Below are positions 12,676 through 58,308 of a stretch of DNA of 64,000 bases, piece by piece. Made by a program: the position numbers and the translations under genes. The first letter of the stretch is position 1. Every line of letters begins with the position of its first letter. The notes under the pieces are model-generated. The model worked only from the letters and a program-made list of their open reading frames with translations. It had not been told where the DNA came from and ran no database searches. Source of the DNA: Candidatus Daviesbacteria bacterium (GTDB lineage Bacteria > Patescibacteriota > Microgenomatia > Daviesbacterales > UBA10151); the NCBI GenBank assembly GCA_016176465.1, contig JACOXD010000004.1, positions 114,119-178,118 on the forward strand, read 5' to 3'.

Positions 12676-13322
12676 AACCAAAATTAAATAAAGAAGAAAA
12701 GCTAACTTTAAACACATATAAAAAAATCGCTAGACAATGGGCAAGAGAACATTCAGATAATATTTGGTCTAAAGAGATCGCAATTTTTAAAAAATACTTA
12801 CCTAAGGGTAAAATTTTAGAAATAGGTTCTGGTGATGGTCGGGATGCAAAGCAGTTAATTAAAATGGGTTATCAATATATTGGTACTGATATTTCTAAAG
12901 AGCTTCTAAAAGTAGCTAAAATGAATAACCCAAAAGCTAAATTTTATAATCAAAGCGTCTATGAGCTAGATTTCCCTGATAATTATTTTGATGGTTTTTG
13001 GGCCTCAGCAGTACTACTACACATACCAAAGGTAAGAATTAACGAAGCTTTAAAAAGAATTCAATATGTAACTAAGAATAAAGGACTGGGATTTATTACT
13101 TTAAAAAGAGGCGAGGGCGAAAAAATTGTAGAAGAAGTTACAGAAACTGGAATGAAATATAAACGGCTTTTCTCATATTATTTATTGGATGAATTTAAGA
13201 AAATTCTTAAGAAGAATGGGTTTGATATCATAAAAAGTTCTCAGAAAAGGATGGGTAAAACAACCTGGCTAATATATTTTGTAAGAGCGATAAAAAGGGA
13301 TAAAAAATTGGAGCTATTTTGA
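12672..13322 (+). CDS. Class I SAM-dependent methyltransferase
   Basis: Motif I ILEIGSGDGRDAKQL, followed by an acidic post-I residue (GTDIS) and motif II/III spacing. Confidence 0.55.
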   Translation: MKPKLNKEEKLTLNTYKKIARQWAREHSDNIWSKEIAIFKKYLPKGKILEIGSGDGRDAKQLIKMGYQYIGTDISKELLKVAKMNNPKAKFYNQSVYELDFPDNYFDGFWASAVLLHIPKVRINEALKRIQYVTKNKGLGFITLKRGEGEKIVEEVTETGMKYKRLFSYYLLDEFKKILKKNGFDIIKSSQKRMGKTTWLIYFVRAIKRDKKLELF

Positions 13323-13405
13323 TACAACAAACTGCTATAGCTTATCTGTGTATCAACTCCTAATTAATTTTATAAGTTTAGACTCTTAATTGATATAATC
13401 TTTTT

Positions 13406-25704: not shown

Positions 25705-26847
25705 ATGAATGGCTTAGATAGCAAATTCAAAGAAAAAATTGTTAAAGATTTACCCTTTTCAAATCTAACAACCTTAAAAATTGGTGGACCTATCAAGTAT
25801 TTTTTTGAAGCTAAAACTGAGGATGAGTTAATAGAAGCTGTTAAATTTGCTCAAAAAAATTCTCTTCCCTATTTAGTAATTGGTGGCGGATCTAATCTTT
25901 TGGTATCTGATAAAGGATATGATGGACTAGTTATAAAAAATTCCATAACTGGAATAGCGAGGGGTGACAGCGAGGAGAGGTCTTGGCGCGTACCCGCAGC
26001 GATCAGGCAACGACCTGAGAGTGAGGATACACGACGAGAAACCGAGCTGGCAGGACCCGGAGCAATTTTGAAGGTAAAAGGCGGGACTGTTTTACAAGAT
26101 TTAGTGGATTATTCTATAAAAAATGGTTTATCTGGTTTACAAAAGATGACTGGGATCCCAGGAACTATAGCTGGGGCAGTTTATGGAAATGCAGGTGCTT
26201 ACGGCCAAACTATTTCTGACCATATAGTAAAGGTGACCATTCTAAAACCAACAACAGGGTCATCTTTCAACTTAATTGGAGGATCCAGTCAGATAGATTC
26301 CCGCTGGAGTTTACCCCGTACCTCGATACGGGACGGGAATGACAATACTGAAATTAAGACCCTAACCAAAGACGCATGTGGATTTGATTACCGCCATAGT
26401 TCCTTTAAAGAAAACAAATCCATTATTTTAGAAGTAATTTTTGAGCTGGAACAGGGAAATCCTAAAACTTTAAAGAAAGAATCTGAAGAAATTTTAGAAA
26501 AAAGATTAGTTAAATATCCAAAAGGAATTAAATGTCCTGGTAGTTTTTTTATGAATATAGTTACTGAAAATTTGCCAAAGGATGTTTTAGAAAAAATTCC
26601 CCAAAATATGATTATGTATGGAAAAATCCCTGCAGGAGCACTTTTAGAAGAAGTTGGAGCAAAAGGAGATTCAATTGATGGAATAGAAATAGCTCCTTAT
26701 CATGCTAATTTATTTGTTAATAAAGGTGGTGGTAAGGCTGAAGATTTTTACAATTTAGCTAAAAAATATTTTCAAAAAGTTAAAGAAAAATTTGGAATTA
26801 CCCTTGAACCAGAAGTCCAATTAATTAATTTACCAGCCTTAAATTAA
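25705..26847 (+). CDS. murB: UDP-N-acetylenolpyruvoylglucosamine reductase MurB, with in-frame insertions
   Basis: An FAD-binding N-terminus (LTTLKIGGPIKYFFEAKTEDELIEAVKFAQKNSLPYLVIGGGSNLL) and a MurB C-terminal domain. A GC-rich segment of about 105 nt at 25955-26063 (ARGDSEERSWRVPAAIRQRPESEDTRRETELAGPG) interrupts conserved blocks, and it is homologous to an insert in tsaD. Confidence 0.75.
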   Translation: MNGLDSKFKEKIVKDLPFSNLTTLKIGGPIKYFFEAKTEDELIEAVKFAQKNSLPYLVIGGGSNLLVSDKGYDGLVIKNSITGIARGDSEERSWRVPAAIRQRPESEDTRRETELAGPGAILKVKGGTVLQDLVDYSIKNGLSGLQKMTGIPGTIAGAVYGNAGAYGQTISDHIVKVTILKPTTGSSFNLIGGSSQIDSRWSLPRTSIRDGNDNTEIKTLTKDACGFDYRHSSFKENKSIILEVIFELEQGNPKTLKKESEEILEKRLVKYPKGIKCPGSFFMNIVTENLPKDVLEKIPQNMIMYGKIPAGALLEEVGAKGDSIDGIEIAPYHANLFVNKGGGKAEDFYNLAKKYFQKVKEKFGITLEPEVQLINLPALN

Positions 26848-26909
26848 TTCTTTATTCTGAAGCTATTTTTGATACACTAGAATGCTATAGCTTTTTAGTG
26901 CATCACTGC

Positions 26910-32774: not shown

Positions 32775-34196
32775 ATGTCTATATACACTCTGGAAAGTGA
32801 AAGAGCTTCACCCTACAACCGAGTAGGGAAAGACCCCTTAAGGTATTTTAAAGATTTAAGTTTGGCTGTTTTAGATCAGTTGATCACCCCCGAGGGAATT
32901 TTCGCCTCTACTTTTAAAGGCCATGAGGGTATCTTTTATGGTAGATTCCGAAGAGACAGTGCAAAAATTGCCAAATTCGTCTTAGCAGCCCTGCCTAATC
33001 ATTCAGCAAAACTTATTTCCAACACTGTGGATGGATTTTTATGGTTAGATCAATTTCGAGGTAAACAAAACGTTTCCAAACGAGGGGAGGAACAAGATAA
33101 AGAACCTCATGAAGTCCGCTCCCCAGGGTACTATGATCATTTAACAACTGGTAGGGTAAATCAAAGACAAAAACCTTTTTTTGTTGATAAAAGCAGCGGA
33201 TTTATGATTAACTGGGATAGTGTTGATGCTACCCCTTTAGCCGGTTTAATTAGGTGTGAATTTTTGAATTTAGGATTGGTTGATCCCAATGAACAAATCC
33301 CACTTTTAAAAAAAAGCTTAGAATGGTCCTTAAGAAATCTCCACGAAAGTAGTGGATTTCCCGGTTTTGCTTATAATCCCAGGCGTCCTTATGCTTGTTT
33401 GCCTAATCAACATTGGGCAGATAGTGAATTTACAATGTATCATCGTGATGGCCGCCCCGCTGCTTACCCTCGCAAACCTGTTGAAGTGGCAGGTTATACC
33501 TGGGCATTTTTTCTCCATGGGGCGGACCAGCTAGATCGAGAAAACCACCAACATACAGACCATGCTTTTGCAAAAAAATTAAGAGTTGTGGCAGCTGACC
33601 TTAAGAAAAGATTTAATAGTCCGCAAGGATTTTTAATGCCTGATAATAAAGTCGGAGCATACTTTGCTGAGTTTATAGATGGAAATGGGCAGCAAGGAAC
33701 TAATGTTACTTCTCAAGTAGGTTTGGGAATGAGTTTTACCTATCAAGGTGAGTCAATAGTTGAGGAGAGATATCTAGCTTCAACTGTGGCAAGAATTATG
33801 CAACCTGATCTATTTGATCCAACTGCAGGTCTGAGAATTTATAGTAATGAAGAAAGTACTACTTTTGATCCAGATGGCTATCATAGCTCATCCGATACTT
33901 ACTGGCCTTTTGAACCTCCTTTAGTAGCAATCGGTTTTGAGCAATTACAATTTGAGTCAGAGGCTAAAAATTTAATGCTTTCAATTTTTCCTCCAATTAC
34001 CCATTTTGGTTGTTGTATAGAGCAATTTCGCGTGAGAAATGGAATTTATGATCGCTTTAGGAACTCCCAAACTGGTCAAACCAGCTCTACTGATCAAGGA
34101 TGGACAGCCGCTGGTTTATATTATGCTGCTACCCATCCTTTGGTCAGAGAGTTTTTTGCTTCCTTAAGACCCCAACCTCACCTCTTTGTTGCTTAA
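32775..34196 (+). CDS. Hypothetical protein (473 aa), possibly an (alpha/alpha)6-barrel glycoside hydrolase-like enzyme, in a region of elevated GC
   Basis: A Trp/Tyr-rich composition (WADSEF, GYTWAFFLHGADQ, DTYWPFEPPL) reminiscent of six-hairpin glycosidases. No firm motif assignment. Confidence 0.3.
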   Translation: MSIYTLESERASPYNRVGKDPLRYFKDLSLAVLDQLITPEGIFASTFKGHEGIFYGRFRRDSAKIAKFVLAALPNHSAKLISNTVDGFLWLDQFRGKQNVSKRGEEQDKEPHEVRSPGYYDHLTTGRVNQRQKPFFVDKSSGFMINWDSVDATPLAGLIRCEFLNLGLVDPNEQIPLLKKSLEWSLRNLHESSGFPGFAYNPRRPYACLPNQHWADSEFTMYHRDGRPAAYPRKPVEVAGYTWAFFLHGADQLDRENHQHTDHAFAKKLRVVAADLKKRFNSPQGFLMPDNKVGAYFAEFIDGNGQQGTNVTSQVGLGMSFTYQGESIVEERYLASTVARIMQPDLFDPTAGLRIYSNEESTTFDPDGYHSSSDTYWPFEPPLVAIGFEQLQFESEAKNLMLSIFPPITHFGCCIEQFRVRNGIYDRFRNSQTGQTSSTDQGWTAAGLYYAATHPLVREFFASLRPQPHLFVA

Positions 34197-34232: not shown

Positions 34233-35396
34233 ATGAATAAATTTAAATTAATTTTAGGGATTGAGACATCTTGTGATGAAACAGCAGCTGCAATACTAAA
34301 AAAGGATGAAGGTCAGATTACTATTTTATCTAATATTGTTGCCTCTTCAGCTAAATTACAAGAAAAATATGGAGGAATTATTCCAGAACAGGCTGCTAGA
34401 GAACAGATTAAAGCTATCATTCCTGTTATTACTGAAGCGCTTAAAAAGGCACGAGTAACAAGTGATAAGTTAGATGCCATAGCAGTTACCCAAGGACCTG
34501 GTTTAATAGGTTCCTTGCTAGTAGGGGTCGAAACAGCTAAAGTTTTAAGTTTAATTTGGGAAAAACCTTTAATTCCTATAAATCATTTATTAGGACATTT
34601 TTATGCAAATTGGATAGCGACGGAGGGTGACAGGGAGGAGAGATCTCGGCGCACCCCCGCAGCGAAGTTGTTACGAGACGAGGAGGTACGACGAGAAACC
34701 GAGCTGGCAGGACCCCCAAGCGTACCAGAGTTCCCCTATCTTGGACTTTTAGTCTCTGGTGGCCATACAGATTTAGTTTTATTTAAAAATCACAATGAAT
34801 ATGACTACCTAGGTGGAACAAGGGATGATGCAGCTGGTGAATGCTTTGATAAATGCGCCAGGTTACTGGGATTTCCCTATCCTGGTGGACCAAAGATTTC
34901 TAAACTGGCAGAGAATGGAAATCCCAAGGCTTTTAAATTCCCAAGACCTATGGAAAAATCTAATGATTTTGATTTTTCTTTTTCCGGCTTAAAGACTTCT
35001 TTTGCTAATTTAGTTAATAGTTCAGAGTTTAAAGTTCAGAGTAAAAAATCAATAAGCTACAAACTCAAAGCGAAGCGTACTCATAACTTAGTCTCTGACT
35101 TAGCTGCATCTTTGGAACAAGCCATTATTGATTCACTCATTACTAAAACCATTAAAGCTGCTCAAAAATATAACATTAAACAAATCATTATTGCAGGAGG
35201 AGTTGCTGCTAATAAAAAACTAATTTCAGAGTTACAATTAGCTATTAACAATGAACTATTAACTATTAAACTCTTTGTTCCTCCACCCTATCTTTGTACA
35301 GATAACGCTGCAATGATTGCCTCCCGTGCTTTTTTTGAAAAAGAGATTAAAGATCCTATATCTTTACAAGCAGATCCAAATTTATCCTTAGCTTGA
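34233..35396 (+). CDS. tsaD: tRNA N6-adenosine threonylcarbamoyltransferase TsaD (Kae1/Gcp family), with a 35-aa in-frame insertion
   Basis: LGIETSCDETAAAI, the HLLGH metal-binding motif, and LVSGGHT. A GC-rich segment at 34612-34722 (ATEGDREERSRRTPAAKLLRDEEVRRETELAGPP) lies between the two conserved motifs and is homologous to the murB insert. Confidence 0.8.
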   Translation: MNKFKLILGIETSCDETAAAILKKDEGQITILSNIVASSAKLQEKYGGIIPEQAAREQIKAIIPVITEALKKARVTSDKLDAIAVTQGPGLIGSLLVGVETAKVLSLIWEKPLIPINHLLGHFYANWIATEGDREERSRRTPAAKLLRDEEVRRETELAGPPSVPEFPYLGLLVSGGHTDLVLFKNHNEYDYLGGTRDDAAGECFDKCARLLGFPYPGGPKISKLAENGNPKAFKFPRPMEKSNDFDFSFSGLKTSFANLVNSSEFKVQSKKSISYKLKAKRTHNLVSDLAASLEQAIIDSLITKTIKAAQKYNIKQIIIAGGVAANKKLISELQLAINNELLTIKLFVPPPYLCTDNAAMIASRAFFEKEIKDPISLQADPNLSLA

Positions 35397-46334: not shown

Positions 46335-46839
46335 TTACTTTTTCCCCTGGGGCAGGCTTAATAATTATATGACGGTTAATCCCTTCACCTAAACTTTCTG
46401 ATTCTACACCTTCAGTGCCAGAAATTGTTAGATGAATTACTCTTCTTTCCCAAGCAGGCATTGGTTCAAGCTCCATTTGCTCACTTGTTTCTATCACTTT
46501 TTGCGCCCAAGCTCTAGCCTTATGAGCTAAATCTTCCTCTCTTGATTTTCTCCAATTAGAAACATCAATGACCACTTTTTTAAATTCTTCTCCTTCTTTG
46601 AGGGATTTTGCTAAAATTTGATTAACTATTAGCTGAAGGGCAGATAAAGTCTCTCCATGCCTGCCTATTAATTTACCAGCATCGATAATCTCAATAGAGG
46701 CAGCTATATAATCGGCGCTTTCTTCAACCTCAAATGAACCCTCAAGCGAGAGTAAACCTAATATATTTTCTAAAATCTCAGAAACTTTATTTTCGTAGAA
46801 AACCTTATTCTCCATGAGAACCTCCTTTTCCATTAACAC
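46294..46839 (-). CDS. jag: Jag/KhpB-like RNA-binding protein (KH + R3H domains)
   Basis: Conserved position immediately downstream of yidC. KH-like IAASIEIIDAGKLIGRHGETLSALQLI and R3H-like LEPMPAWERRVIH. Confidence 0.6.
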   Translation of the reverse strand: MLMEKEVLMENKVFYENKVSEILENILGLLSLEGSFEVEESADYIAASIEIIDAGKLIGRHGETLSALQLIVNQILAKSLKEGEEFKKVVIDVSNWRKSREEDLAHKARAWAQKVIETSEQMELEPMPAWERRVIHLTISGTEGVESESLGEGINRHIIIKPAPGEKVNEKSSKKVTSKGS

Positions 46840-47665
46840 CCCTTAATCTATTAATAATCCCATCCATTCCACCCCATCCTGAAAGTAGGTACTGTTGGAT
46901 TATGCCGATTAATGTAAACATATTCCAGTAAACAGAAAGGCCGGTCGGGAATTGCCAGGAGAAAAAACCAATCATAACCGGCATCATATAAACCATTTGC
47001 CCCTGGATAGCACTCATAGCATCCTCAGCTTTCTCTTTCTCTTTCATCTCTTTAGGTAAATCTGAAGGATATTTTTTAACAGGCTTTGGCATAATCATTT
47101 TTGATTGAATAAAGGTCAATACCGCTGTTAAGAGTGGGATCAAAAGCAAGAGGTAACCGTGTTGGACAAACTCAGCAGGCTTATAAGTTAGGTTGATCCC
47201 TAAAAAATTAGGATCAGGGGGGGAAGATAACTTCATGACAGGAAAATATAGCATTTCGTTAATTTGTTTTAAACCACTCGGACCGGAAAAAAAAGCAAAA
47301 ATCGCCTGATAAAGCGCGATTAGAATTGGAAACTGAATTAAAGTAGGCAGACACCCAGCAGCAGGATTGACCCCATGTTCTTTATATAACTGCATTTGGG
47401 CTTTGGCAAAAGCTTGTTTATCCCCTGCATGCTTTTTTTTAAGCTCATCCATATGAGGCTTTAAATCAGCCATTTTTTTAGCAGATTTTAATTGCCGAGA
47501 AATTGCCGGCCAAGTAACTAGCCTTATAAGTAAAGTTAAAATAATAATGGAAAATCCTAACGCTCCTGGGATTCCCAGGTATTGAAGTGTATTGATTAAA
47601 AATACCAACAAGTTAATTAAGGGAGCTAAAAAAACAGTATTGAATAAATCAAAAATTACCTGCAC
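46805..47665 (-). CDS. yidC: Membrane protein insertase YidC (short, Gram-positive/CPR type)
   Basis: The YidC/Oxa1 60-kDa-IMP core (GVNPAAGCLPTLIQFPILIALYQAI..., WQFPTGLSVYW). The order rpmH-rnpA-yidD-yidC-jag is conserved. Confidence 0.8.
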   Translation of the reverse strand: MQVIFDLFNTVFLAPLINLLVFLINTLQYLGIPGALGFSIIILTLLIRLVTWPAISRQLKSAKKMADLKPHMDELKKKHAGDKQAFAKAQMQLYKEHGVNPAAGCLPTLIQFPILIALYQAIFAFFSGPSGLKQINEMLYFPVMKLSSPPDPNFLGINLTYKPAEFVQHGYLLLLIPLLTAVLTFIQSKMIMPKPVKKYPSDLPKEMKEKEKAEDAMSAIQGQMVYMMPVMIGFFSWQFPTGLSVYWNMFTLIGIIQQYLLSGWGGMDGIINRLRGVNGKGGSHGE

Positions 47666-47874
47666 GAAATTATCCTCCTTAATCCTAAATAAACTCCTCT
47701 AATGCTGCCATACTCAGCAATCATTTGCTTTGTATACTGCGAACAAGTTGGGTAATTTCGACAACTTCCTCCCGGAGCAAAGTAAGATAAAACACCATGA
47801 TCAAATGAAAGGAATTTTTGGTAAAAATCAATTAGGGATAATAATATCTTGGACATTTTGTAAATCTTTAGCAA
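47656..47874 (-). CDS. yidD: Membrane protein insertion efficiency factor YidD
   Basis: CRNYPTCSQY...RCHP-like Cys motif (CRxxPTCSxY) in a 72-aa protein, in the conserved position. Confidence 0.7.
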   Translation of the reverse strand: MLKIYKMSKILLSLIDFYQKFLSFDHGVLSYFAPGGSCRNYPTCSQYTKQMIAEYGSIRGVYLGLRRIISCR

Positions 47875-48163
47875 CCAAAGTAGGATTTGCTTTTAAAATA
47901 TTGACTTTAGGCATGATAACTAAATTCAAATTTTTAATCAATAGCGGATAAGTTAGGTCAGTAGCGCTGAAAGCTAATCTTTTAGCCTTGTTTCGCTGTG
48001 TTGATTTAGGAAAGTATATTTTAGAAAGGGCAATTCCAATTAAGGGATTTTCATTTTCTCCGAGTCTAAAATTAAGTTTTAAATATTTTGTTTCTTTTTT
48101 ATCTCCTTTGGCTACCCACTTAAAACTTTTTGATAAATTTAGCCTTTTATTTTTAGGAAGCAT
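47828..48163 (-). CDS. rnpA: RNase P protein component RnpA
   Basis: A basic 111-aa protein with a KNKRLNLSKSFK RNR-like motif, located between rpmH and yidD. Confidence 0.7.
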   Translation of the reverse strand: MLPKNKRLNLSKSFKWVAKGDKKETKYLKLNFRLGENENPLIGIALSKIYFPKSTQRNKAKRLAFSATDLTYPLLIKNLNLVIMPKVNILKANPTLVAKDLQNVQDIIIPN

Positions 48164-48173
48164 AGGAAAAAGT

Positions 48174-48314
48174 TTAGATTGTTAAACGATGAGCACCTTT
48201 TAACCGTCTTCGTTTCAAAATTAACTGTCCGGTTTTAGAAGACATTCGAGCCCTAAATCCATGTTTTTTTTGGCGCTTAGCTTTTTTAGGCTGGTAGGTA
48301 CGTTTAGTAGACAT
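48174..48314 (-). CDS. rpmH: Ribosomal protein L34
   Basis: [46 protein letters not shown] is near-consensus L34. The longer track ORF (to 48401) is a spurious 5' extension through oriC sequence. Confidence 0.85.
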
Positions 48315-48401
48315 GGGGACAAGTATACTATACTTACCCGGGATACGAAATATGTAATATGAAATATGTTTACTTATTGTGTCTCGTATTCCGTATCTCA
48401 T

Positions 48402-48488
48402 ATCACATATCCCAAAAATATATTTGATCCATTAATTAATAGTTTCTCTCTCTTTACCTGTTGATAACTTATCCACTAATATAGCTTC
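48402..48488. promoter_or_regulatory. rpmH-dnaA intergenic region with DnaA-box-like 9-mers (oriC part 1 / dnaA promoter)
   Basis: TTATCCACT at about 48466-48474, and TTGATAAC (the complement, TTATCAACA-like) at about 48457-48465. An adjacent AT-rich repeat tract (ATACGAAATATG / ATATGAAATATG) lies at 48330-48400. Confidence 0.45.
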
Positions 48489-49820
48489 ATGGACGAAAAG
48501 GAGAGAAAAAAGATCTGGACGAAGATAACTGATGTTATTAAAGAAGAAATCTCATCAGCCAATTTTAGAACCTGGTTTTCTCAAACAGTGCTGGGAGAAA
48601 TAAGTAATGAAAAGATGGTGATATTTGTCACTTCTGCATTCATTAAAAACCAGCTCTTATCACGCTATCAATCTTTACTTGAAGAGGCTATTGAAAAAAC
48701 TTTGGGCAAAAAAATGGTGGTTGAATGTAAAATAAACACCACAATCAACTCAATTTCGGAAGAAAGTTTTGAGCTGGAAACTCCTCCACGACTACAATCT
48801 TTTGTAGGCCTTAACCCAAGATATACTTTAGCCAATTTTGTGGTTGGATTAACCAATAACTTAGCTTATGCAGCGGCTCAAGCCGTTGTCCAAAACCCAG
48901 GCATCTCTTATAACCCTTTATTTATTTACGGTCCATCAGGGGTAGGGAAGACTCACCTGATGCAAGCTATTGGTAATGCCATTTTTGGCAAAAATTCCTA
49001 CTCAAAAATAGTTTATGCTCCCTCAGAACGCTTTATGGTTGATTTTGTGGATTCAATTCAAAATAAAAAAACAGGAGATTTCCGCTCAAAATACCGATCC
49101 TCCAATTTATTATTAATAGATGATATCCAGTTCATAGCTGGAAAAGATTCCACACAGGAGGAGTTTTTCCATACTTTTAATGAATTACACTCCAAAAATT
49201 GCCAGATTGTTTTGACTTCAGATAGACCTCCTAATGAAATGGTAAAATTAGAATCCAGGTTACTCTCCAGATTCCAAGGGGGATTAATGGTGGACATTCA
49301 ATTACCTGACTTTGATACCCGGATGGCAATATTAAAAACTAAATTAAAAGAGCGAGAAGAAACCCTTCCTGAGGAATATCTTAAGCTAATTGCTGAAAAT
49401 ATAGAATCCAACACAAGAGAGCTTGAAGGGAAGCTTATTCAAATACTGCAAATGAGCAAACTAAGCAACCAACCCCTAAATGAAGACTCGGTTAGGAAGT
49501 TTTTGGGATCTAGACATAAACAATTATCAGCTAATATAGATCATAAAAAAGTTCTAACAACTTTAAATAACTATTTTAATATAAAAACAGCGGATTTAAC
49601 TGGTCCTAGACGGCAAAAAGAATTAGTTTTACCCAGGCATTTGGCAATGTATATTCTTTACGAAGAGTGCAAAATTCCCATGGAAAAGATTGGTCAAATT
49701 TTAGGAGGTAGGGATCACACTACTATTTTGCATGGGATTGAAAAAATAAGGGGTAATTTAGGAAGGGACCGGGAAGTACAAAGACTACTGATTGAAATAA
49801 AACAACAGCTTCTAAATTAA
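48489..49820 (+). CDS. dnaA: Chromosomal replication initiator DnaA
   Basis: AAA+ motifs: Walker A GPSGVGKTHL, Walker B LLLIDDIQF, sensor and arginine-finger regions. The C-terminal DNA-binding domain (LTGPRRQKELVLPRHLAMYIL..., IGQILGGRDHTTILHGIEKI). Confidence 0.9.
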   Translation: MDEKERKKIWTKITDVIKEEISSANFRTWFSQTVLGEISNEKMVIFVTSAFIKNQLLSRYQSLLEEAIEKTLGKKMVVECKINTTINSISEESFELETPPRLQSFVGLNPRYTLANFVVGLTNNLAYAAAQAVVQNPGISYNPLFIYGPSGVGKTHLMQAIGNAIFGKNSYSKIVYAPSERFMVDFVDSIQNKKTGDFRSKYRSSNLLLIDDIQFIAGKDSTQEEFFHTFNELHSKNCQIVLTSDRPPNEMVKLESRLLSRFQGGLMVDIQLPDFDTRMAILKTKLKEREETLPEEYLKLIAENIESNTRELEGKLIQILQMSKLSNQPLNEDSVRKFLGSRHKQLSANIDHKKVLTTLNNYFNIKTADLTGPRRQKELVLPRHLAMYILYEECKIPMEKIGQILGGRDHTTILHGIEKIRGNLGRDREVQRLLIEIKQQLLN

Positions 49821-50002
49821 ATATCCACATTTCCCCTTTAGTTATCCACATACTTTTCCACAATTTTAAAGTATTTTTCAACACGAAAAAAGTTCGAAAT
49901 CTATTCTTAAATTGCTTGGTTTTTAAACTTATGCACATGCTCTATAATAGCTATTACTAATTTGAATATATTATATTTATCTAGAAATAAGTGGACAACT
50001 AA
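49821..50002. promoter_or_regulatory. oriC DnaA-box cluster with an AT-rich unwinding region, between dnaA and dnaN
   Basis: ATATCCACA (49821-49829), TTATCCACA (49842-49850), TTTTCCACA (about 49854-49862), TTATGCACA (about 49928-49936), and an inverted TTGTCCACT (about 49989-49998). These are interspersed with AT tracts (TTTTAAAGTATTTTT, TATAATAGCTATTACTAATTTGAATATATTATATTTAT). Confidence 0.65.
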
Positions 50003-50461
50003 ATGGAAATAAATTGGGTTGTTATTTTATTTATTGTACTTGGGTTGATAATTGCTTATTTAATCGGCAGACTGCAAGCAAAACCAAAATCAAGCGATAT
50101 TCCACAAGATTTCATAGATTTGTATAAACAAGTTGAAGGACTACCTTTAAGAGTTTTACAAACCATTCAAGGCTCAATTAATCCCCAGAAAGGAAAAATG
50201 GCAGAGCTTTTAACCTATGCAGAGCTTAGATATGATTATGATCGGATCATTCCGCTAGGTTGGCCAATTGATTTTATTGGAATTAAAAATAATGAGCGGA
50301 TTGATTTTATAGAAGTTAAATCAGGAAACTTTGCACTCTTGACAGATGAGGAAAAACACATTAAAAACCTTATAGTTAAAGGATCTGTTCATTTTAGATT
50401 AATTAAAGTAACAGAAGAAGAAATTTCTAAATTTATTTCTGCCCAAAAGGAAGGAAATTGA
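50003..50461 (+). CDS. Membrane-anchored PD-(D/E)xK nuclease-fold protein (YraN/Hjc-like), inserted between dnaA and dnaN
   Basis: An N-terminal TM helix (WVVILFIVLGLIIAYLIG). The pattern GKMAELLTYAELRYDYDRIIPLGWPIDFIGIKNNERIDFIEVKSG matches the E...(x)GEiDlia....e..fVEVK.R arrangement of YraN (UPF0102) and Hjc nucleases. Confidence 0.45.
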   Translation: MEINWVVILFIVLGLIIAYLIGRLQAKPKSSDIPQDFIDLYKQVEGLPLRVLQTIQGSINPQKGKMAELLTYAELRYDYDRIIPLGWPIDFIGIKNNERIDFIEVKSGNFALLTDEEKHIKNLIVKGSVHFRLIKVTEEEISKFISAQKEGN

Positions 50462-50477
50462 CAGTAATCAATTAACA

Positions 50478-51587
50478 ATGAAGATTACAATACTCCAGCA
50501 GGATTTGGTTGGTCCTCTCCAGGCAGTTTCCCGCTCAACCGGAAAGAGTAATTTACCAGTGCTTGCTAATATCTTAATCCAAACAGAAGCAGGTAAACTT
50601 AAACTCTCTGCCACTAACTTAGAGATAGGGGTTATAAAAAAAGTTAATGCAAAGGTGGAAGAAGATGGAGAAATCACTGTCCCATCAAGAACCTTTCTTG
50701 ATGTTATAACCTCACTAACAGGTGAAAAAATAACTTTAGAGGGCTCACTTGACCAATTAAAAATTTCTACCAGTAGTTTTAAAGCATCCATTAATGGGAT
50801 CCCAGCTAATGAATTTCCCTCAATTCCTTTAGCATCAGAGCAATCAGTTGTTTTAGATGCTTTTATACTAAAGCAGTCTTTGCCTGAGATTACTTTTGCA
50901 GCAGCTGTTGATGAGGGAAGGCCTATTTTAACTGGAATTTTAACTGAAATAAAAAAGGATTCCCTAGAACTTGTTGCAACAGATGGTTTTAGATTGGCTC
51001 ATAAGAAGGTTAAGATATTAGGAGAAGGGGAGTTTAAAGCTTTAATTCCCAGAAAGACTTTTGAAGAAATTGTTAGGTTAATTGATGAAGATTTAGTAAA
51101 CAGTAAAGAAGAAAAAGTGGAAATGGCAACAGCCGAAGGTCAAAACCAGATTATTTTTAAAATTGGCCAAACTGAACTTTCCTCTCGCTTAATTGAAGGA
51201 AATTTCCCATCCTGGGATAAAATAATCCCAAAAGAGTTTGAAAACAGAACTATTATTGAAAAGGGGGAACTTGCCAAAGCTGTCAAGCTGGCCTCAGTCT
51301 TTGCAAAAGACGTCGCTAATATTATAAAGATCCAAACCAGTGAAAATAAAATTATAGTCTCATCAGAGACAAAGGAGTTAGGTTCACAGGAAAGTGAAGT
51401 TGAATGCCTTGTTGAGGGCTCCCCTTTAATTATTGCTTTTAATGGTCGCTTTTTATCAGACGTACTAGCAGCTTGTTCCACTTCGCAAATTGCCATAGAA
51501 TTTTCCGGATCTTTATCAGCTGCGCTGCTTAAGCCAGTTGGGGAAGAGGGGTTAGAATATATTATTATGCCTGTTCGCTTAACTTAG
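50478..51587 (+). CDS. dnaN: DNA polymerase III beta sliding clamp DnaN
   Basis: MKITILQQDLVGPLQAVSRSTGKSNLPVLANILIQTEAGKLKLSATNLEIGV... with three-domain clamp architecture, in the conserved position after dnaA. Confidence 0.85.
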   Translation: MKITILQQDLVGPLQAVSRSTGKSNLPVLANILIQTEAGKLKLSATNLEIGVIKKVNAKVEEDGEITVPSRTFLDVITSLTGEKITLEGSLDQLKISTSSFKASINGIPANEFPSIPLASEQSVVLDAFILKQSLPEITFAAAVDEGRPILTGILTEIKKDSLELVATDGFRLAHKKVKILGEGEFKALIPRKTFEEIVRLIDEDLVNSKEEKVEMATAEGQNQIIFKIGQTELSSRLIEGNFPSWDKIIPKEFENRTIIEKGELAKAVKLASVFAKDVANIIKIQTSENKIIVSSETKELGSQESEVECLVEGSPLIIAFNGRFLSDVLAACSTSQIAIEFSGSLSAALLKPVGEEGLEYIIMPVRLT

Positions 51588-53973: not shown

Positions 53974-55713
53974 AGGCCCAGTAACCCCAGGTTCTACCTT
54001 TGGTTGCTAAGAAATTATTGTAATTGATTGCATTAGTCGTTTGTAAGGTCCAAACCACATCTCCATGGTCATACTGGCCATTTCTTCCTCTGCCCATCTG
54101 ATAAAGTCCCCATGCACCTTGCGGATCAGGTGACCCACTGAAGAAATCATTTGGGTTATAACTACTTTCACAAGGGATAATTACATTAAACCAGAAATAA
54201 GCGTTAGTTGGATCATTTTGCTCTATGAGGGTATATAAATCATCTTTAGTAAAATTACATTGGGGGTCACCATAATTTTGCCCCAATGGGTTATTTAACT
54301 TATACCTTCCACTACATGTGTCATTATTTGCAGGAACATTTCCGGTAGTTGGAATGGTTCCAGCTCCACTAGTTGAGGTTATCTTTGCATCAGCACTGTT
54401 TACTACCCAAATATTATCATCAAGTGGGGCAACAACTAAAGCTAGTTGTTTAGTTTGACCTGAGGAAAGAGAGAATTGCCAGGTGACCACCTTACCTCTG
54501 CATTATCAGGGATAATATCTGTTACCTCAATATTAGCTATTCCTTGACCTAGGTATCCAACATTAATTGTGTATACAATAGGTTGTCCATTAGCAACCGC
54601 TCCATCAACCCCCCCTGGCCCTGTTTTAGAAATTGCTAATTGTTTGGAAGAAGATAGATTTTGGCCAGGAACTCCTCCTCCAAAAAGATTTAAAAGCATT
54701 GCCCCAAAAATTATCAAAAAAAGTAATCCTATAAAAAGTAGAGCTAATCTTTTATCAGCGATGGTCCTGGTTGGACCAAAGCGCCTAAACCTTCCAAAAA
54801 ACCGCCCTCCATTCCCTAGAAGTCTACCTCTTCCTGAGAAAATTCTTCCCAGATTAATATTTGGCCGCCAGGAGAACATATTTCTTAAAGGCATCCTAAA
54901 AGTTCTGGAGCTACCACTACTGCCTCTAAGGATGCCCATAAAACCTAAAATTCGATTACTAAAAAAAGCACCGCCTAATCCGCCAATGGCAGCGCCACCC
55001 CAGCTTCCGACTATTCCACCCATGACTGCCCCAGCACCGCCAGTCCATAAAGCAGGCTTACTTAAGATTTTTTTAAATGGAACAGTGTTAATTTTATTGA
55101 GAGGAATTTTAGAGAGGAGGTTGCTACTTCTTTGAAAAAAACTCCCTAAATTTTGCCTAATATTAATTGGTGCTCGCGGAATAGGACTTGGAGCAGGAGG
55201 CGAAGAAGGAGTAGGTGTTGTTGGAGTTGGAGGTTGACTCGGTTGGGGCTGAGGAGGGCTGGCGGGTGGCTGTGGAGGTTGTTGGGGAGGAAAGGGGGCT
55301 TGGTGGGGGAGGCTTGCTGGTGCAGAAGCTCCTCCATGAGATGGAGTAGGAGATGGTGTTTCTTGTTGTGACTGCTGGGCTAACTCAGCTTGTTCTGCCT
55401 CTGCTTCTTGTCTAAATTGCTCAATAACCTCTTTTGGCTCCTCAATTACTTTATTGGAATTCCAAATTTCATTTAGGTCAGGATCATTTCTTGCATAAGC
55501 AGTAGCAACAGTATCAATATAGCCTTCAGTTGTTGGCAAAACCTTAAATTTTGCTGGTAGAAATCTCTTGGAGTATTTAACAGCTAATTTTCGTGAAATG
55601 CGAGATGGAAACCCAGGGATGTTTAGGCTCCTAAATTGATCCTGCTTATTTTTATGAAACCTTAAAATTACGTTTAAAAGTGCTTTATGTAAACTAAACT
55701 GGACTAAAGCCAT
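53948..55713 (-). pseudogene. Surface protein with a Pro-rich region, a TM helix, a DUF11 conserved-repeat domain and a C-terminal VirB1-like lytic transglycosylase (SLT) domain. It is interrupted by a -1 frameshift at about 54442-54490 (track ORFs 54442..55713 and 53948..54490).
   Basis: Upstream ORF: PQQPPQPPASPPQPQPSQPPTPTTPTPSSPPAPSP, a Gly-rich segment, the TM LALLFIGLLFLIIFGAMLL, then a DUF11-like IVYTINVGYLGQGIANIEVTDIIPDNAEV. The DUF11 unit continues in the -1 frame as VVTWQFSLSSGQTKQLALVVAP. Downstream: SLT motifs CESSYNPN (ES), GAWGLYQM (GLMQ-like) and NAINYNN (AYN-like). Confidence 0.5.
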
Positions 55714-55715
55714 TT

Positions 55716-57497
55716 TTATCCTCCTTTAATTAAATCCTCAGGGTTAGCGGTTATTAACTGGTGCTCCTCAGGGGAAGCAATTACAGACATCGCAACATGT
55801 GTTGGCCCGGCAAAAAATAACCCCTGGCCTACCCCAGCAGATAATAAAAGCCTCATCTCTCCCTCTGATAGATTAAATACTTCCCCAATGCGTTCAATTG
55901 AGGCAGGGCTTTGTTTTAATAGAATTTGAATTGATGAATTAGAGATAATCTCTTTTCCCCGATCTCCTCCTAAGAAATCCTCTACATCTTGAGTAATGGT
56001 TGTTACTCCCAAAAAATATTTCCTTGCTCTTTTAGCAATTTCTACTAAAAAATCAGCTGAGTCAGGATTTTTCATCATATACCAGGCCTCATCTACAACC
56101 AGCAATCTTTTTTTACGCTTAATCCTGATTTTAGTCCAGATATAATCTAGTATTAGATACATAGCTAGCGGCCGCAGCTGATCTGCTAAATCCCTGACAG
56201 AAAATACAGTTAAAGAGTTAGATAAATCAATATTTGAAGGAGCGGAAAAAATCCCAGCCAGCGATCCTTTAATAAACCTCTCTAGTCTAAAATTTAATTC
56301 CAATGCTTGAGGTTCTTCCATACCAGCTAAAACTTTGTACAAATCTTCCATCAAAGGAGGTGGGTTTTTTTGAGTTTTTGGATCAGGGGTAATGCCTTTT
56401 AATCTATAGGTAGTAGTTATTGCTCTATCGAGTATTGCTGCTTGCCCGGCATCTAAACTTCCCAGCACTAATTTTAAAAACCCGGTTAATGATAAAATCT
56501 TTCTACCCAACTCATTTTCACCAGTCATGGCAACAGATGATAAATCAAAAGGGTTAATTTTAATTGGGGAATCAGATGAGAAATTAATATAATTTCCACC
56601 AATGGCTTTAGATAAACTTAGATACTCTTGTTCAGGATCAATTACTATAGCATCTGTCCCAAACATTAAAGAACGCAGCGTTTCTAATTTTACTAAATAT
56701 GATTTTCCCGCGCCTGACTTGGCGAAGATCGTACTGTTCCCATTCTCTAAACTAAACCTGTCAAAAATAATTAGTGAATCATTGTGCTCATTAATTCCAT
56801 ACATTATTCCCTCATTAGCAGTTAGTTCTGAGGAGGTAAATGGAAAAGTAGTAGCTAGGGATGTAGTATCCATATTATGGTTAAGAAGTAAAAGGTCTGC
56901 TCCTAAAGGTAGTGTTGAGATAAAAGAGTCCTCCATCTGCAAGGTTAGAGGATAAGCGTTTATGGAAAGTGAAGCTAGGGTGGATTGTAAAATCTTTGAG
57001 GTATTATCCAGTTCTTCTTTGGAGCTTGAAGGTAGTGTAATATATAACCCCAATTGGAAAAATCTTTCCGCCCCTCTGGCTAGTTGATCTTGCAGCGCTC
57101 TGGCATCATCCAAGGAAACTTGAACTGAAGGGTCTATATCCCTACCTCTTTCCAAATCAGTTTGGATGGTTGCTTCCATTTCAGCAATCTTTCTTTTTAG
57201 ATCATCCAAAATATCTTTTGAGGTAGATGGATAAATAAACATGGAAATATTTAACGAATGATCAAAAGATACTAGTGGTTCAAGCCAGTTTGGGCCAATA
57301 TAACGAGGGTAGCCTGCCACAAAAAAAGAACGAAAATATGTAGTGTTGATTCTTAAATGATTAAAATCAATCTCCATATCTTTAGGAGATAAAACATCAA
57401 CCAAAGAGACTGAATTGTTCACTGTTAATGGCGCATTGTTAATAGAAGTACTTTGAGTTTTTTTAGGCTTAATAAGATCAAGTAAAGGTATTTTCAT
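55716..57497 (-). CDS. VirB4/TraE/PrgJ-family type IV secretion ATPase (C-terminal ATPase domain)
   Basis: Walker A FAKSGAGKSYL, Walker B RLLVVDEAWYMM, and a length of 593 aa. Overall collinear with the CagE/TrbE/VirB4 C-terminal region. Confidence 0.75.
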   Translation of the reverse strand: MKIPLLDLIKPKKTQSTSINNAPLTVNNSVSLVDVLSPKDMEIDFNHLRINTTYFRSFFVAGYPRYIGPNWLEPLVSFDHSLNISMFIYPSTSKDILDDLKRKIAEMEATIQTDLERGRDIDPSVQVSLDDARALQDQLARGAERFFQLGLYITLPSSSKEELDNTSKILQSTLASLSINAYPLTLQMEDSFISTLPLGADLLLLNHNMDTTSLATTFPFTSSELTANEGIMYGINEHNDSLIIFDRFSLENGNSTIFAKSGAGKSYLVKLETLRSLMFGTDAIVIDPEQEYLSLSKAIGGNYINFSSDSPIKINPFDLSSVAMTGENELGRKILSLTGFLKLVLGSLDAGQAAILDRAITTTYRLKGITPDPKTQKNPPPLMEDLYKVLAGMEEPQALELNFRLERFIKGSLAGIFSAPSNIDLSNSLTVFSVRDLADQLRPLAMYLILDYIWTKIRIKRKKRLLVVDEAWYMMKNPDSADFLVEIAKRARKYFLGVTTITQDVEDFLGGDRGKEIISNSSIQILLKQSPASIERIGEVFNLSEGEMRLLLSAGVGQGLFFAGPTHVAMSVIASPEEHQLITANPEDLIKGG

Positions 57498-57500
57498 ATC

Positions 57501-58271
57501 TTAATCCTCTAGTTCCTCAACAACAAATGGTGTAGTAGTTCTTGGTTCACTAGGATAAGCTATCGGTGCTGTTTTTGGTGTAGTAGTTGCCTGAGGGCTA
57601 GTTATTGGAGGTGTTGAGGGTTGAGTTGTTGCCATCTGAGCAGGTGGATTAGGGGTAGAAAGTGAAGAAGCGAGGGGTAAGTTTAAATTAGTTGATTCAA
57701 CTTCTAAAACAGTTTCTTGAAATTCACTAGGGTTATAAATATCATAAAATAATTCAATTAACTTAGCACTGTTTAATTGCTGCGCTCGCAAGCCTATTCT
57801 CCATAATTGACGGATAATATGGTCTCGCCTTGGAATTAAAATAGTCAAAGCTTTTTGGCTGTTTTTGGTACTATTTTTTGTTAAGCCAAGTTCTAGATAA
57901 GAGAGGGGAATGATTATAAAAAATTGTTTATCCAAAACATCATTTTCTTTTACTGTTTGGGAGATAAAATTTTTATACCTTAAAATCATTGATGCAAGTA
58001 AGGGGTTACTTTGTTTTTTGTGTGCCTCTTCAAGCTTTTCCAAATAAGAGGTGACATTTAATCTTTTAGACCTAATCATAATTTGAATTGAAAAAGAAAG
58101 TGAGTTTAAAAGTCCGGCAAAACCGCTAATGATAGAAAGCTGTTCTCGCTCAGATAGTAAGCCAAAGTTAACAGCGCTTGTCTCCAATATAAGTGCTAAG
58201 CTAGAATCTTTTAAAATGACTAAATCACCTTGGATATCTTGGATTGGTAAATGTTCTTGAGTAGTAGCCAT
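57501..58271 (-). CDS. VirB4 N-terminal-domain-like protein (a separate ORF immediately upstream of the ATPase ORF), with a Pro/Thr-rich C-terminal tail
   Basis: LPIQDIQGDLVILKDSSLALILETSAVNFGLLSEREQLSIISGFAGLLNSLSFSIQIMIRS matches the N-terminal pattern of Gram-positive VirB4 homologs (ip.~~i~dgii~~kdGsy~kil~v~~iN~~L~s~~E). A TAA stop and a 3-nt spacer precede the ATPase ORF. Confidence 0.45.
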   Translation of the reverse strand: MATTQEHLPIQDIQGDLVILKDSSLALILETSAVNFGLLSEREQLSIISGFAGLLNSLSFSIQIMIRSKRLNVTSYLEKLEEAHKKQSNPLLASMILRYKNFISQTVKENDVLDKQFFIIIPLSYLELGLTKNSTKNSQKALTILIPRRDHIIRQLWRIGLRAQQLNSAKLIELFYDIYNPSEFQETVLEVESTNLNLPLASSLSTPNPPAQMATTQPSTPPITSPQATTTPKTAPIAYPSEPRTTTPFVVEELED

Positions 58272-58308
58272 AATAATAGTTAATAGTTCACAGTTAATAG
58301 TTTATTGT

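What the first reader, a model, noticed from the sequence alone, without database searches (positions are those of the whole stretch)
34612..34722. tsaD copy of the in-frame GC-rich insertion
This is the second copy of the element described for murB. It is inserted exactly between the HxxGH metal-binding motif and the LVSGGHT block of TsaD and preserves the frame. It is recorded separately for coordinate-level follow-up.
Basis: seen in the sequence. Interest (0 to 1): 0.6.

Follow-up and report, generated by a model that had tools for sequence, protein, structure and literature searches.

The report
In-frame palindromic mobile element in tsaD
A ~100-base GC-rich hairpin-forming repeat sits in frame inside the essential tsaD gene (and again in murB) of an AT-rich Candidatus Daviesbacteria genome; it belongs to a small mobile-element family that lodges in tolerant protein loops, much like the palindromic elements known from Rickettsia but here in an ultra-small CPR bacterium and with an unusually well-preserved hairpin.

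Summary
Window 34620-34720 (+) is a 63% GC, ~100-nt insert in a 34.6% GC genome. It is in frame and stop-free in tsaD, between the HLLGH motif and LLVSGGHT. A second copy lies in murB (25957-26063).

A covariance model scores these two at 97 and 93 bits; nothing else in the window exceeds 8 bits. Ten more DNA copies were recovered from related Microgenomates contigs. Hosts are tsaD, murB, the gene upstream of murB (antisense to that gene) and rplA. Matches found at protein level only add a glycosyltransferase and a second tsaD site. Related genomes have empty sites.

All copies fold into one imperfect hairpin: 96-98% of cells paired, 11-12 of 23-24 pairs with compensatory changes, 0/500 shuffles as good. 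The termini GGGTGAC and GGCAGGACCC and the internal loops are invariant.

Orthologous tsaD copies are 84-91% identical, against ~50% at the gene's third codon positions. Yet their 3' halves are read in different frames, so conservation is at nucleotide level, not peptide level. AlphaFold places the insert in a low-confidence loop.

Best reading: a non-autonomous palindromic mobile element, translated through, analogous to Rickettsia palindromic elements. It is a new family in a new phylum. The mobilising enzyme is unknown.

The parts
34233..35396 (+). tsaD (tRNA t6A37 threonylcarbamoyltransferase subunit), host gene of copy 1
   Evidence: ORF; PF00814; NCBI name; matches PDB TsaD chains at E 1e-72.
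34620..34720 (+). Element copy 1 (core): GC-rich imperfect hairpin, read in frame as TsaD residues ~130-163
   Evidence: Covariance model R1 96.8 bits, E 2e-22. 63% GC. Consensus hairpin. AlphaFold pLDDT below 50 for residues 133-161.
34625..34631 (+). Invariant 5' terminal motif GGGTGAC (always read GGT GAC = Gly-Asp when sense to the host gene)
   Evidence: Invariant in all aligned copies; position.
34706..34715 (+). Invariant 3' terminal motif GGCAGGACCC (ACCC pairs with GGGT of the 5' end; GCAGG is a conserved unpaired internal loop)
   Evidence: Invariant in all aligned copies; pairing; position.
25705..26847 (+). murB (UDP-N-acetylmuramate dehydrogenase), host gene of copy 2
   Evidence: ORF; PF01565 and PF02873 plus NCBI name.
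25957..26063 (+). Element copy 2 (core), in frame in a beta-hairpin loop of MurB (ITGI[ARGD...ELAGPG]AILKVKGG)
   Evidence: R1 93.1 bits. RNA fold z = -3.6. The closest MurB relative P0122 and syntenic L007 are uninserted. AlphaFold pLDDT 51-64 over the insert.

Best explanation
This is one copy of a small, non-autonomous, palindromic mobile DNA element. It is about 100 nt long and GC-rich, in an AT-rich Candidatus Daviesbacteria (Microgenomates, CPR) genome. It has inserted into the coding sequence of tsaD and is translated through as a roughly 35-residue hydrophilic, probably disordered surface loop.

SHOWN:
- The element is a dispersed family. Twelve full DNA copies were found at four gene sites, plus two more host contexts seen at protein level.
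- It is read sense in some hosts and antisense in one.
- Related genomes have empty sites.
- It forms one long imperfect hairpin whose pairing is kept by compensatory changes.
- Its termini (GGGTGAC ... GGCAGGACCC) and asymmetric internal loops are invariant.
- The nucleotide sequence is conserved, not the peptide.
- Every copy inside a gene keeps the frame and has no stop.

INFERRED:
- Copies spread by a trans-acting enzyme (not identified) that recognises the hairpin and its conserved unpaired bases, possibly on single-stranded DNA.
- Insertions that break a gene are purged. Survivors are therefore in-frame copies in structurally tolerant loops. This would explain why the same TsaD and MurB loops accumulate such inserts.
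- The hairpin stays intact either because each family is kept transposition-competent (with gene conversion among copies) or because of some added in-situ role.
For: Repeat and specificity:
- Two window copies score 97 and 93 bits; the next hit scores 8 bits.
- blastn between the two copies gives E 1.7e-16.

Family and mobility:
- Copies occur in tsaD of L007, L012 and L013, and in murB of L009, L011, L014, L015 and L016.
- Copies also occur in the divergent gene upstream of murB in L016 (103 bits), L011 (31 bits) and L014 (cut by the contig end). These are antisense to that gene and read in frame as ARGPAGSVSRR....
- A copy lies in the rplA N-terminal extension (L018, 86.8 bits).
- Peptide-profile hits add a GT4 glycosyltransferase and a second TsaD site.
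- Empty sites exist: L007 murB, P0122, and L017 tsaD.
- L014_murB and L016_up are 93% identical, although they lie in different genes of genomes whose MurB proteins are 70% identical. The two copies within L016 are only 78% identical.

Structure:
- RNAalifold gives 23 pairs, 12 of them with compensatory changes.
- 97.8% of cells are paired, against 88% in shuffles and 22-42% in slid controls; 0/500 shuffles match on all five measures.
- The 12-copy alignment gives the same picture.

Nucleotide-level rather than peptide-level constraint:
- Orthologous tsaD copies are 0.84-0.91 identical. The gene overall is 0.69-0.75 and third codon positions are 0.47-0.54.
- The bases CCGAGCTGGCAGGACCC are read as ELAGP in the window but as SWQDP in L007 and L012.

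Translation through the insert:
- Four copies were found without any protein-based ascertainment: two in the window, plus L016_up and L011_up. All four are in frame and stop-free.
- A 1-nt indel in the apical loop of the window tsaD copy is compensated downstream.

Tolerated position:
- AlphaFold TsaD has pTM 0.86, with only residues 133-161 (and 272-274) below pLDDT 50.
- MurB gives a similar result.

Precedent: Rickettsia palindromic elements are 100-150 bp interspersed repeats inserted in frame in genes (PMC1779305, PMC10969869).
Against: - No transposase or other candidate mobilising gene is present in the 64-kb window (Pfam scans).
- No target-site duplication and no consistent target motif is visible at the junctions.
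- Copy number is low: two copies in 64 kb.
- The element is conserved more strongly than expected for decaying selfish DNA. Compensatory changes are seen even between orthologous tsaD copies. That fits an in-situ function at least as well.
- Translation of the insert is inferred only; no transcript or peptide data were available.
- My genome and metagenome DNA scans used a 20-mer containing a window-specific stretch and found only chance hits. The true distribution and copy number of the family are therefore unknown.
Confidence: 0.68

Rival explanations
1. The element is a host-beneficial structured nucleic-acid module. Whatever its origin, the hairpin (as mRNA or as single-stranded DNA) would now be under purifying selection in place. 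It could be a binding site for a CPR protein, or a translation-pausing or mRNA-stability signal in essential genes.
For: - Orthologous tsaD copies are more conserved (0.84-0.91) than the gene's synonymous sites (~0.5), and their divergence tracks the host tree.
- Compensatory changes occur between orthologous copies.
- Unpaired bases (GA bulge, GCAGG loop, GAGGA) are invariant. Simple palindrome self-correction would not preserve these.
- There are 12 G-U against 2 A-C at paired positions on the + strand.
Against: - Three copies are antisense to their host gene, so a sense-mRNA role cannot be general.
- Close relatives do without it at the same sites.
- Host genes are functionally unrelated: tsaD, murB, rplA, a glycosyltransferase and an unknown gene.
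- No Rfam family matches.
- The G-U excess could come from C-to-T bias on the non-transcribed strand.
Confidence: 0.18
2. The insert is a lineage-specific protein insertion, selected for the peptide it encodes (a functional expansion segment of TsaD or MurB).
For: - It is in frame and stop-free.
- It sits in surface loops.
- The peptide is charged and hydrophilic.
Against: - The 3' half is read in two different frames in orthologous tsaD genes while the DNA is conserved.
- The reverse strand is translated in another host.
- The same DNA occurs in unrelated proteins.
- AlphaFold gives pLDDT below 50 for the insert.
Confidence: 0.03
3. The insert is an intervening sequence that never reaches the protein. 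It would be either a small self-splicing or processed RNA element, or a translational bypass ('hop') element like the GC-rich byps of Magnusiomyces mitochondria.
For: - It is a GC-rich structured insert in an AT-rich genome within essential coding sequences. This resembles mitochondrial GC clusters and byps (PMC6649704 discussion).
- The hairpin is conserved.
Against: - All copies keep the frame and lack stops, including four found without protein-based ascertainment. Indels are compensated to restore the frame. That constraint is unnecessary if the segment were removed or skipped.
- No ribozyme or intron family matches.
- 100 nt is far below the size of group I or group II introns.
Confidence: 0.04
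4. The insert is an assembly or chimera artefact: foreign GC-rich reads mis-joined into an AT-rich contig.
For: - Composition jumps sharply at the insert.
- Contigs do break at copies of this repeat: the L014 contig ends inside one, and P0244 looks chimeric.
Against: - An identical tsaD with the insert appears in three separate read sets and an NCBI MAG.
- Orthologous copies occur in several other metagenomes with appropriate divergence.
- The frame is preserved.
Confidence: 0.01

Closest known systems
Rickettsia palindromic elements (RPE-1 to RPE-10; Ogata et al. 2000, 2002, as summarised in PMC10969869, PMC1779305 and PMC6649704)
   Same: - About 100-150 bp interspersed palindromic repeats.
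- Inserted in frame into unrelated, often essential, genes of a reduced AT-rich genome.
- Translated as extra segments compatible with the protein fold.
- No transposase of their own.
- Some insertions are older than species splits.
   Different: - Different phylum (CPR/Microgenomates), and no sequence relationship is known.
- GC-rich against an AT-rich background.
- The hairpin is actively maintained, with compensatory changes and invariant loops. RPEs are reported to lose repeat identity with time (PMC6649704).
- Low copy number in the DNA seen here.
- The same loops are re-used by several unrelated families.
[quoted passage not shown]
   Same: Small, non-coding, non-autonomous, able to fold, and occasionally making in-frame fusions (PMC10969869).
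   Different: - No target-site duplication was found.
- Terminal inverted repeats are only the 4-5 bp basal stem (GGGGT/ACCCC).
- No parent insertion sequence was identified.
REP/BIME elements mobilised by RAYT (IS200/IS605-type Y1) transposases
   Same: - GC-rich hairpin with conserved unpaired bases.
- No TIR or TSD in the classical sense.
- Plausible single-strand recognition.
- Possible strand bias.
   Different: - REPs are 20-40 bp, extragenic, and carry a GTAG or CGTC tag at one end (PMC3733652). This element is about 100 nt, intragenic and has no such terminal tag.
- No RAYT gene is present in the window.
Mitochondrial GC clusters, double-hairpin elements and Magnusiomyces 'byps'; coding palindromes of Nematomorpha mitochondria (PMC6649704)
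   Same: GC-rich or palindromic mobile inserts within protein-coding genes of AT-rich, compact genomes. Structure and coding coexist.
   Different: - Byps are skipped by the ribosome. Here the open frame argues for read-through.
- Nematomorph palindromes encode conserved protein regions on both arms. Here the peptide is unconstrained.
- This element is bacterial, not organellar.

Membership tests
Rickettsia palindromic elements (RPE-type protein-coding palindromes) | Interspersed repeat of about 100-150 bp present at several unrelated loci | tested here: met
   About 100-107 nt. Two copies in the window and ten more in related contigs, in tsaD, murB, the gene upstream of murB and rplA.
Rickettsia palindromic elements (RPE-type protein-coding palindromes) | Palindromic: can form a stable hairpin | tested here: met
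   Consensus hairpin of 23-24 pairs with 96-98% of cells paired.
Rickettsia palindromic elements (RPE-type protein-coding palindromes) | Inserted in frame in protein-coding genes at positions compatible with the fold | tested here: met
   All genic copies are in frame and stop-free. The insert is a low-confidence loop in otherwise confident models. Retained enzyme activity was not testable.
Rickettsia palindromic elements (RPE-type protein-coding palindromes) | Sequence homology to an RPE family, or occurrence in Rickettsiales | tested here: not met
   The host is Candidatus Daviesbacteria, not Rickettsiales. No comparison with RPE profiles was run, because no RPE library was available. Membership in the RPE families proper is therefore not claimed, only analogy.
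MITE | Target-site duplication flanking the element | tested here: not met
   No direct repeats at the junctions of 13 copies. The tsaD copies instead show inverted flank repeats.
MITE | Terminal inverted repeats matching a parent insertion sequence | tested here: inconclusive
   Only a short basal stem GGGGT/ACCCC. No IS or transposase in the window. The rest of the genome was not available.
REP / RAYT system | 20-40 bp extragenic palindrome with a GTAG or CGTC tag at one end (PMC3733652) | tested here: not met
   The element is about 100 nt and intragenic. Its ends are GCGAGGGGTGAC... and ...GGACCCCGAGC.
REP / RAYT system | Associated RAYT (Y1 HUH transposase) gene in the genome | not testable with these tools
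   None in the 64-kb window. The remaining part of the 191-kb contig and the rest of the genome could not be read.
IS200/IS605-derived non-autonomous elements | Insertion 3' of a fixed tetra- or pentanucleotide target; strand bias relative to replication | tested here: inconclusive
   5' flanks vary (..ATA..ATT..GTA..GCA..TTT..ACA), so there is no fixed target. All copies in the murB-tsaD block are on one DNA strand, left of dnaA/dnaN, but that covers only three sites.
Known structured RNA families (Rfam 15), including ribozymes and introns | Match to a curated covariance model | tested here: not met
   No hit at gathering threshold in the window. Only chance-level hits at E above 1 around both copies. 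No tRNA or tmRNA.
Intein | Self-splicing protein domain of at least ~130 aa with conserved splice-junction residues | tested here: not met
   The insert is about 35 aa. The frame of its 3' half differs between orthologs.

The most novel reading that the evidence does not exclude
The hairpin may not be mere selfish DNA. It could be a maintained, strand-specific nucleic-acid signal that CPR bacteria tolerate, or exploit, inside essential genes. It would be recognised by an as yet unknown protein through its invariant unpaired bases. Particular protein loops in TsaD, MurB and L1 would act as recurrent landing pads, where successive families of GC-rich hairpin elements target or nest into earlier ones. 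This would be a previously undescribed layer of genome dynamics in ultra-small bacteria.
Probability: 0.2. Interest if true: 0.8.

Novelty: new member of a known kind. Interest (0 to 1): 0.55.

Why it matters
Protein-coding palindromic repeats were described as a peculiarity of Rickettsia. Finding an unrelated family that behaves the same way in Candidate Phyla Radiation bacteria suggests this is a general outcome in compact, AT-rich genomes with almost no intergenic space, where permissive protein loops are the only safe landing sites.

It has practical consequences:
- The elements inflate and diversify essential proteins.
- They confuse homology-based annotation.
- They break metagenome assemblies: contigs end inside copies.

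The strong nucleotide-level conservation with compensatory changes makes two questions testable: what recognises the hairpin, and whether such inserts are purely parasitic. I found no paper in the searchable library linking palindromic, MITE or REP elements with CPR bacteria.

Tried and rejected
1. Exact 20-mer scans of genome contigs and metagenome contigs with CGAGAAACCGAGCTGGCAGG returned only chance hits in high-GC genes (cytochrome oxidase III and a radical-SAM-like gene). In hindsight the 20-mer included CGAGAAACC, which is specific to the two window copies.

2. A better gapped pattern on viral contigs found nothing.

3. A word-indexed protein search with a two-peptide profile found nothing.

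4. Rfam at gathering and at permissive thresholds, and ARAGORN, found nothing.

5. Single-sequence folding of the tsaD copy is not better than shuffles. Only the comparative evidence supports the hairpin.

6. GC skew of the window follows gene orientation and did not by itself give replication direction. The dnaA/dnaN position was used instead.

7. I looked for a kink-turn-like arrangement of the GA / GCAGG internal loop by eye. It does not fit the canonical tandem G-A pattern, so I dropped it.

8. I suspected that the two window copies share derived stem states through gene conversion. Those states are also in L013, so the evidence is weak.

9. An apparent swap of subfamilies between L014 and L016 is only partial. 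The L014 upstream copy is truncated and is 87-88% identical to all three comparators.

10. One paper (PMC186582, Ogata 2002) was not available.

Full report
**What is there**

The window is AT-rich (34.6% GC). It comes from a Candidatus Daviesbacteria (Microgenomates, CPR) contig, according to the source names of its TsaD and MurB proteins. ORF 34233..35396 (+) is tsaD.

Between the metal-binding HLLGH motif and the LLVSGGHT strand lies a roughly 100-nt stretch of 63% GC. It reads in frame as ATEGDREERSRRTPAAKLLRDEEVRRETELAGPPSV. Against solved TsaD structures, query residues 127-163 stand where the solved chain has five residues. A related genome has the empty site ANWLGETPTFPC (L017).

A second copy lies in murB at 25957-26063, also in frame. 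A covariance model built from family members scores the two window copies at 96.8 and 93.1 bits, and nothing else in 64 kb above 8.3 bits. The identical tsaD occurs in three separate read-set assemblies and an NCBI MAG, so an assembly artefact is excluded.

**It is a dispersed family, not a peptide module**

I aligned 120 TsaD and 120 MurB homologues.
- 11 TsaD and 7 MurB proteins from other metagenomes carry the same kind of insert at the same loops. It starts ..RGD/EGD.. and ends ..ELAGP.. or ..QDPE.
- 25/120 TsaD and 76/120 MurB proteins have the bare loop.

I fetched DNA for nine relatives and recovered ten further full copies:
- tsaD in L007, L012 and L013;
- murB in L009, L011, L014, L015 and L016;
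- the N-terminal extension of ribosomal protein L1 (L018, 86.8 bits);
- the gene transcribed divergently upstream of murB in L016 (103 bits).

Weaker or partial copies lie in that same upstream gene in L011 (31 bits, same termini, different interior) and L014 (cut by the contig end).

The copies in the upstream gene lie on the same DNA strand as the murB copy. They are therefore antisense to their host gene, and are still in frame (ARGPAGSVSRRAPSLTSFAAATRRDPSSPSP).

A profile of the sense peptide searched against 1.84 billion representatives gave 12 hits. These were L1 proteins, a GT4 glycosyltransferase, a TsaD carrying the element at its second variable site, and several short ORFs.

The syntenic relative L007 has the tsaD copy but an empty murB site. 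The closest MurB relative (P0122, 70% identity) is also empty.

L014_murB and L016_up are 93% identical, although they sit in different genes of genomes whose MurB proteins are only 70% identical. The two copies within L016 are 78% identical. Together these facts indicate movement, or conversion, between sites.

**Anatomy**

All copies share an invariant 5' GGGTGAC and 3' GGCAGGACCC, further invariant blocks (CCG.A, GAGGA), and a variable apex.

RNAalifold predicts one long imperfect hairpin of 23 pairs, 12 of which show compensatory double changes. On the independent MAFFT alignment:
- 97.8% of cells are standard pairs, against 88.1% after shuffling and 22-42% when partners are slid;
- none of 500 shuffles reaches the observed value on any of five measures.

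A 12-copy model-based alignment gives 96.5% paired and 11 compensatory pairs.

The unpaired GA bulge and the GCAGG internal loop never vary. Self-templated palindrome correction would tend to remove such asymmetry, so it looks like a recognition feature.

The reverse strand folds almost as well (alifold -23.6 against -25.9 kcal/mol). Paired positions carry 12 G-U against 2 A-C on the + strand. That could mean selection for folding of that strand, or C-to-T bias on the non-transcribed strand.

The tsaD copy on its own is not distinguishable from shuffled sequence (z 0 to -0.8). The murB copy is (z -3.6). No Rfam family, tRNA or tmRNA matches.

I saw no target-site duplication and no fixed target sequence. 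In L007, L012 and L013 the hairpin continues into the AT-rich flanks as perfect 9-11 nt inverted repeats.

**Nucleotide-level, not peptide-level, conservation**

Among the four tsaD orthologues:

| Measure | Identity |
|---|---|
| Gene, nucleotide level | 0.68-0.75 |
| Gene, third codon positions | 0.39-0.54 |
| Element, W / L007 / L012 | 0.84-0.91 |
| Element, L013 vs the others | ~0.70 |

The element's divergence follows the host's.

Yet the 3' half is read in different frames. CCGAGCTGGCAGGACCC gives ELAGP in the window and SWQDP in L007 and L012. The cause is a 1-nt indel in the apical loop, which is compensated downstream of the core.

This rules out a selected peptide. It also shows that the reading frame must be restored, meaning the insert is translated. 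The four copies found without protein-based ascertainment (two in the window, plus L016_up and L011_up) are all in frame and stop-free.

**Where it sits in the proteins**

AlphaFold models are confident overall (TsaD pTM 0.86; MurB pTM 0.81).
- The tsaD insert (residues 133-161) has pLDDT below 50. It lies between the helix after HLLGH and the LLVSGG strand.
- The murB insert has pLDDT 51-64.

The L1 copies lie in the lysine-rich N-terminal extension. These are positions where extra disordered residues are likely to be harmless.

**Context**

Pfam scans of about 60 window ORFs found no transposase. They did locate rnpA, yidC, dnaA and dnaN at 46.8-51.6 kb, which places oriC near 48.3 kb.

tsaD and murB therefore lie on the left replichore, transcribed head-on to replication. 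The element's top strand is the leading-strand template. All three sites in this syntenic block share that orientation, but three sites are too few for a conclusion.

**Interpretation**

The best-supported explanation (about 0.68) is a non-autonomous palindromic mobile element, translated through as a disordered loop. It would be mechanistically analogous to the Rickettsia palindromic elements: 100-150 bp interspersed repeats inserted in frame into unrelated genes (PMC1779305, PMC10969869, PMC6649704).

It is not a member of the RPE families proper, since the host phylum differs and no homology is known. It fails the defining features of MITEs (no TSD) and of REPs (wrong size, intragenic, no GTAG/CGTC tag; PMC3733652).

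The main rival (about 0.18) is that the hairpin is maintained in place for a host or protein-binding function. The unusual conservation favours this. The antisense copies, the empty sites in close relatives and the unrelated hosts count against it.

I consider three other readings unlikely, for the reasons given in the rival list:
- a selected peptide;
- an excised or bypassed intervening sequence;
- an assembly artefact.

The mobilising enzyme and mechanism remain unknown. A hairpin-recognising single-strand transposase is my inference, not a result.

**Novelty**

I found no paper in the searchable library that connects palindromic, MITE or REP elements with CPR/Patescibacteria. I rate this as a new member of a known kind (RPE-like protein-coding palindromes).

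Two features go beyond the precedent:
- the hairpin is maintained by compensatory evolution;
- the same TsaD and MurB loops are re-used by at least five unrelated GC-rich palindromic families.

**Limits**

- My DNA scans of the genome and metagenome collections used a poorly chosen 20-mer and are uninformative.
- Only 64 kb of the genome and short related contigs were visible.
- No expression data were available.

Noticed in passing
TsaD homologues P0001-P0120 (loop HFYANWI|..|PxFPC); MurB homologues P0121-P0240 (loop ITGI|..|LKVKSGT): Both loops are insertion hotspots across Microgenomates. 67/120 TsaD and 16/120 MurB proteins carry at least 14 extra residues there. The inserts come from at least five other repeat types shared between the two genes: VIPAKAGI..(S)GMTD..IATS..LLPRNDx, HLRGE..HLGG / HLPGVKAHLEGV, NTNYIIHNT-like, and TSKVGxDSFEV.
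   Followed up: partly
MurB homologues P0161, P0222, P0230: Nested inserts: a further segment sits inside the short palindromic insert TSKVG|DSFEV (for example TTSKVG[FLVPSEGKSDFPEVE]GDSFEV). This suggests that hairpin apices are themselves re-used as insertion points.
   Followed up: no
window 26297-26345 (murB, residues ~186-212): murB carries a second, different GC-rich palindromic insert (ATTCCCG..CCCGTA..TACGGG..CGGGAAT, read as IDSRWSLPRTSIRDGNDN). AlphaFold pLDDT is below 50 there. A short relative of the same motif (ATTCCCGC....GCGGGAATGACA) lies at about 7155-7180 (I19).
   Followed up: partly
window 6632-7441 (-), with 7052-7185: A 270-aa ORF matches only the C-terminal half of the reverse-transcriptase domain (RVT_1, E 2e-12). 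It is itself interrupted in frame by GC-rich palindromes (GTCATCCCCGA...TCGGGGATC). The type of reverse transcriptase was not determined.
   Followed up: no
window 46808-51584: A replication-origin neighbourhood: yidC and rnpA on the - strand, then dnaA (48489-49817) and dnaN (50478-51584) on the + strand. oriC is probably in the 48164-48488 gap. Genes left of it are mostly co-oriented with replication, but tsaD and murB are head-on.
   Followed up: partly
window 32775-34196 (+): A 473-aa ORF with no Pfam hit and higher GC (up to 0.48) lies between ligT and tsaD. In L007, L012 and L013 ligT is directly followed by tsaD, so this gene looks like a lineage-specific insertion.
   Followed up: no
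window ~35016-35090 (TsaD residues ~262-285): TsaD has a second variable, low-confidence region (NSSEFKVQSKKSISYKLKAKRTHN; pLDDT 57-73) that varies in length among orthologues. In another genome (P0244) this second site carries the same element family.
   Followed up: partly
L007 7996-8118, L012 3095-3220, L013 1761-1880: In the tsaD copies of relatives, perfect 9-11 nt inverted repeats continue the hairpin into the AT-rich flanks: GGATATTTAG/CTAAATATCC, AATGTAAGC/GCTTACATT, GGATTGTGAAC/GTTCACAATCC. They involve the host codons for Trp-Ile and Ile-Pro. It is unclear whether this is part of the element or in-situ palindrome extension.
   Followed up: no
window 34608-34616; L016 ~386-400; window 25944-25956: The host motif Asn-Trp-Ile (AATTGGAT) directly precedes the insert both in TsaD and, on the other strand, in the 298-aa gene upstream of murB (LPNWIxD). 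murB has ACTGGAATA. This could be a weak target preference or coincidence.
   Followed up: no
L014 1-61; P0244: A contig ends inside a copy of the element (L014). One protein (P0244) fuses a pyruvate:ferredoxin oxidoreductase N-terminus to the C-terminal part of TsaD close to a copy. This suggests the repeats break or mis-join metagenome assemblies.
   Followed up: no
window 13319-13356 and 26870-26905: Two similar AT-rich intergenic palindromes centred on GCTATAGC (TGATACA...GCTATAGC...TGTATCA) lie just after convergent or terminal gene ends, one of them right after murB. They may be a shared terminator or another small repeat (I4 and I9).
   Followed up: no
window 55719-59490 (-): VirB4/TraG-like P-loop ATPase and PrgI-like genes are present, the type IV secretion-like cluster typical of CPR bacteria. 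The neighbouring ORF 54445-55713 contains very GC-rich, low-complexity Gly/Pro-rich coding sequence.
   Followed up: no
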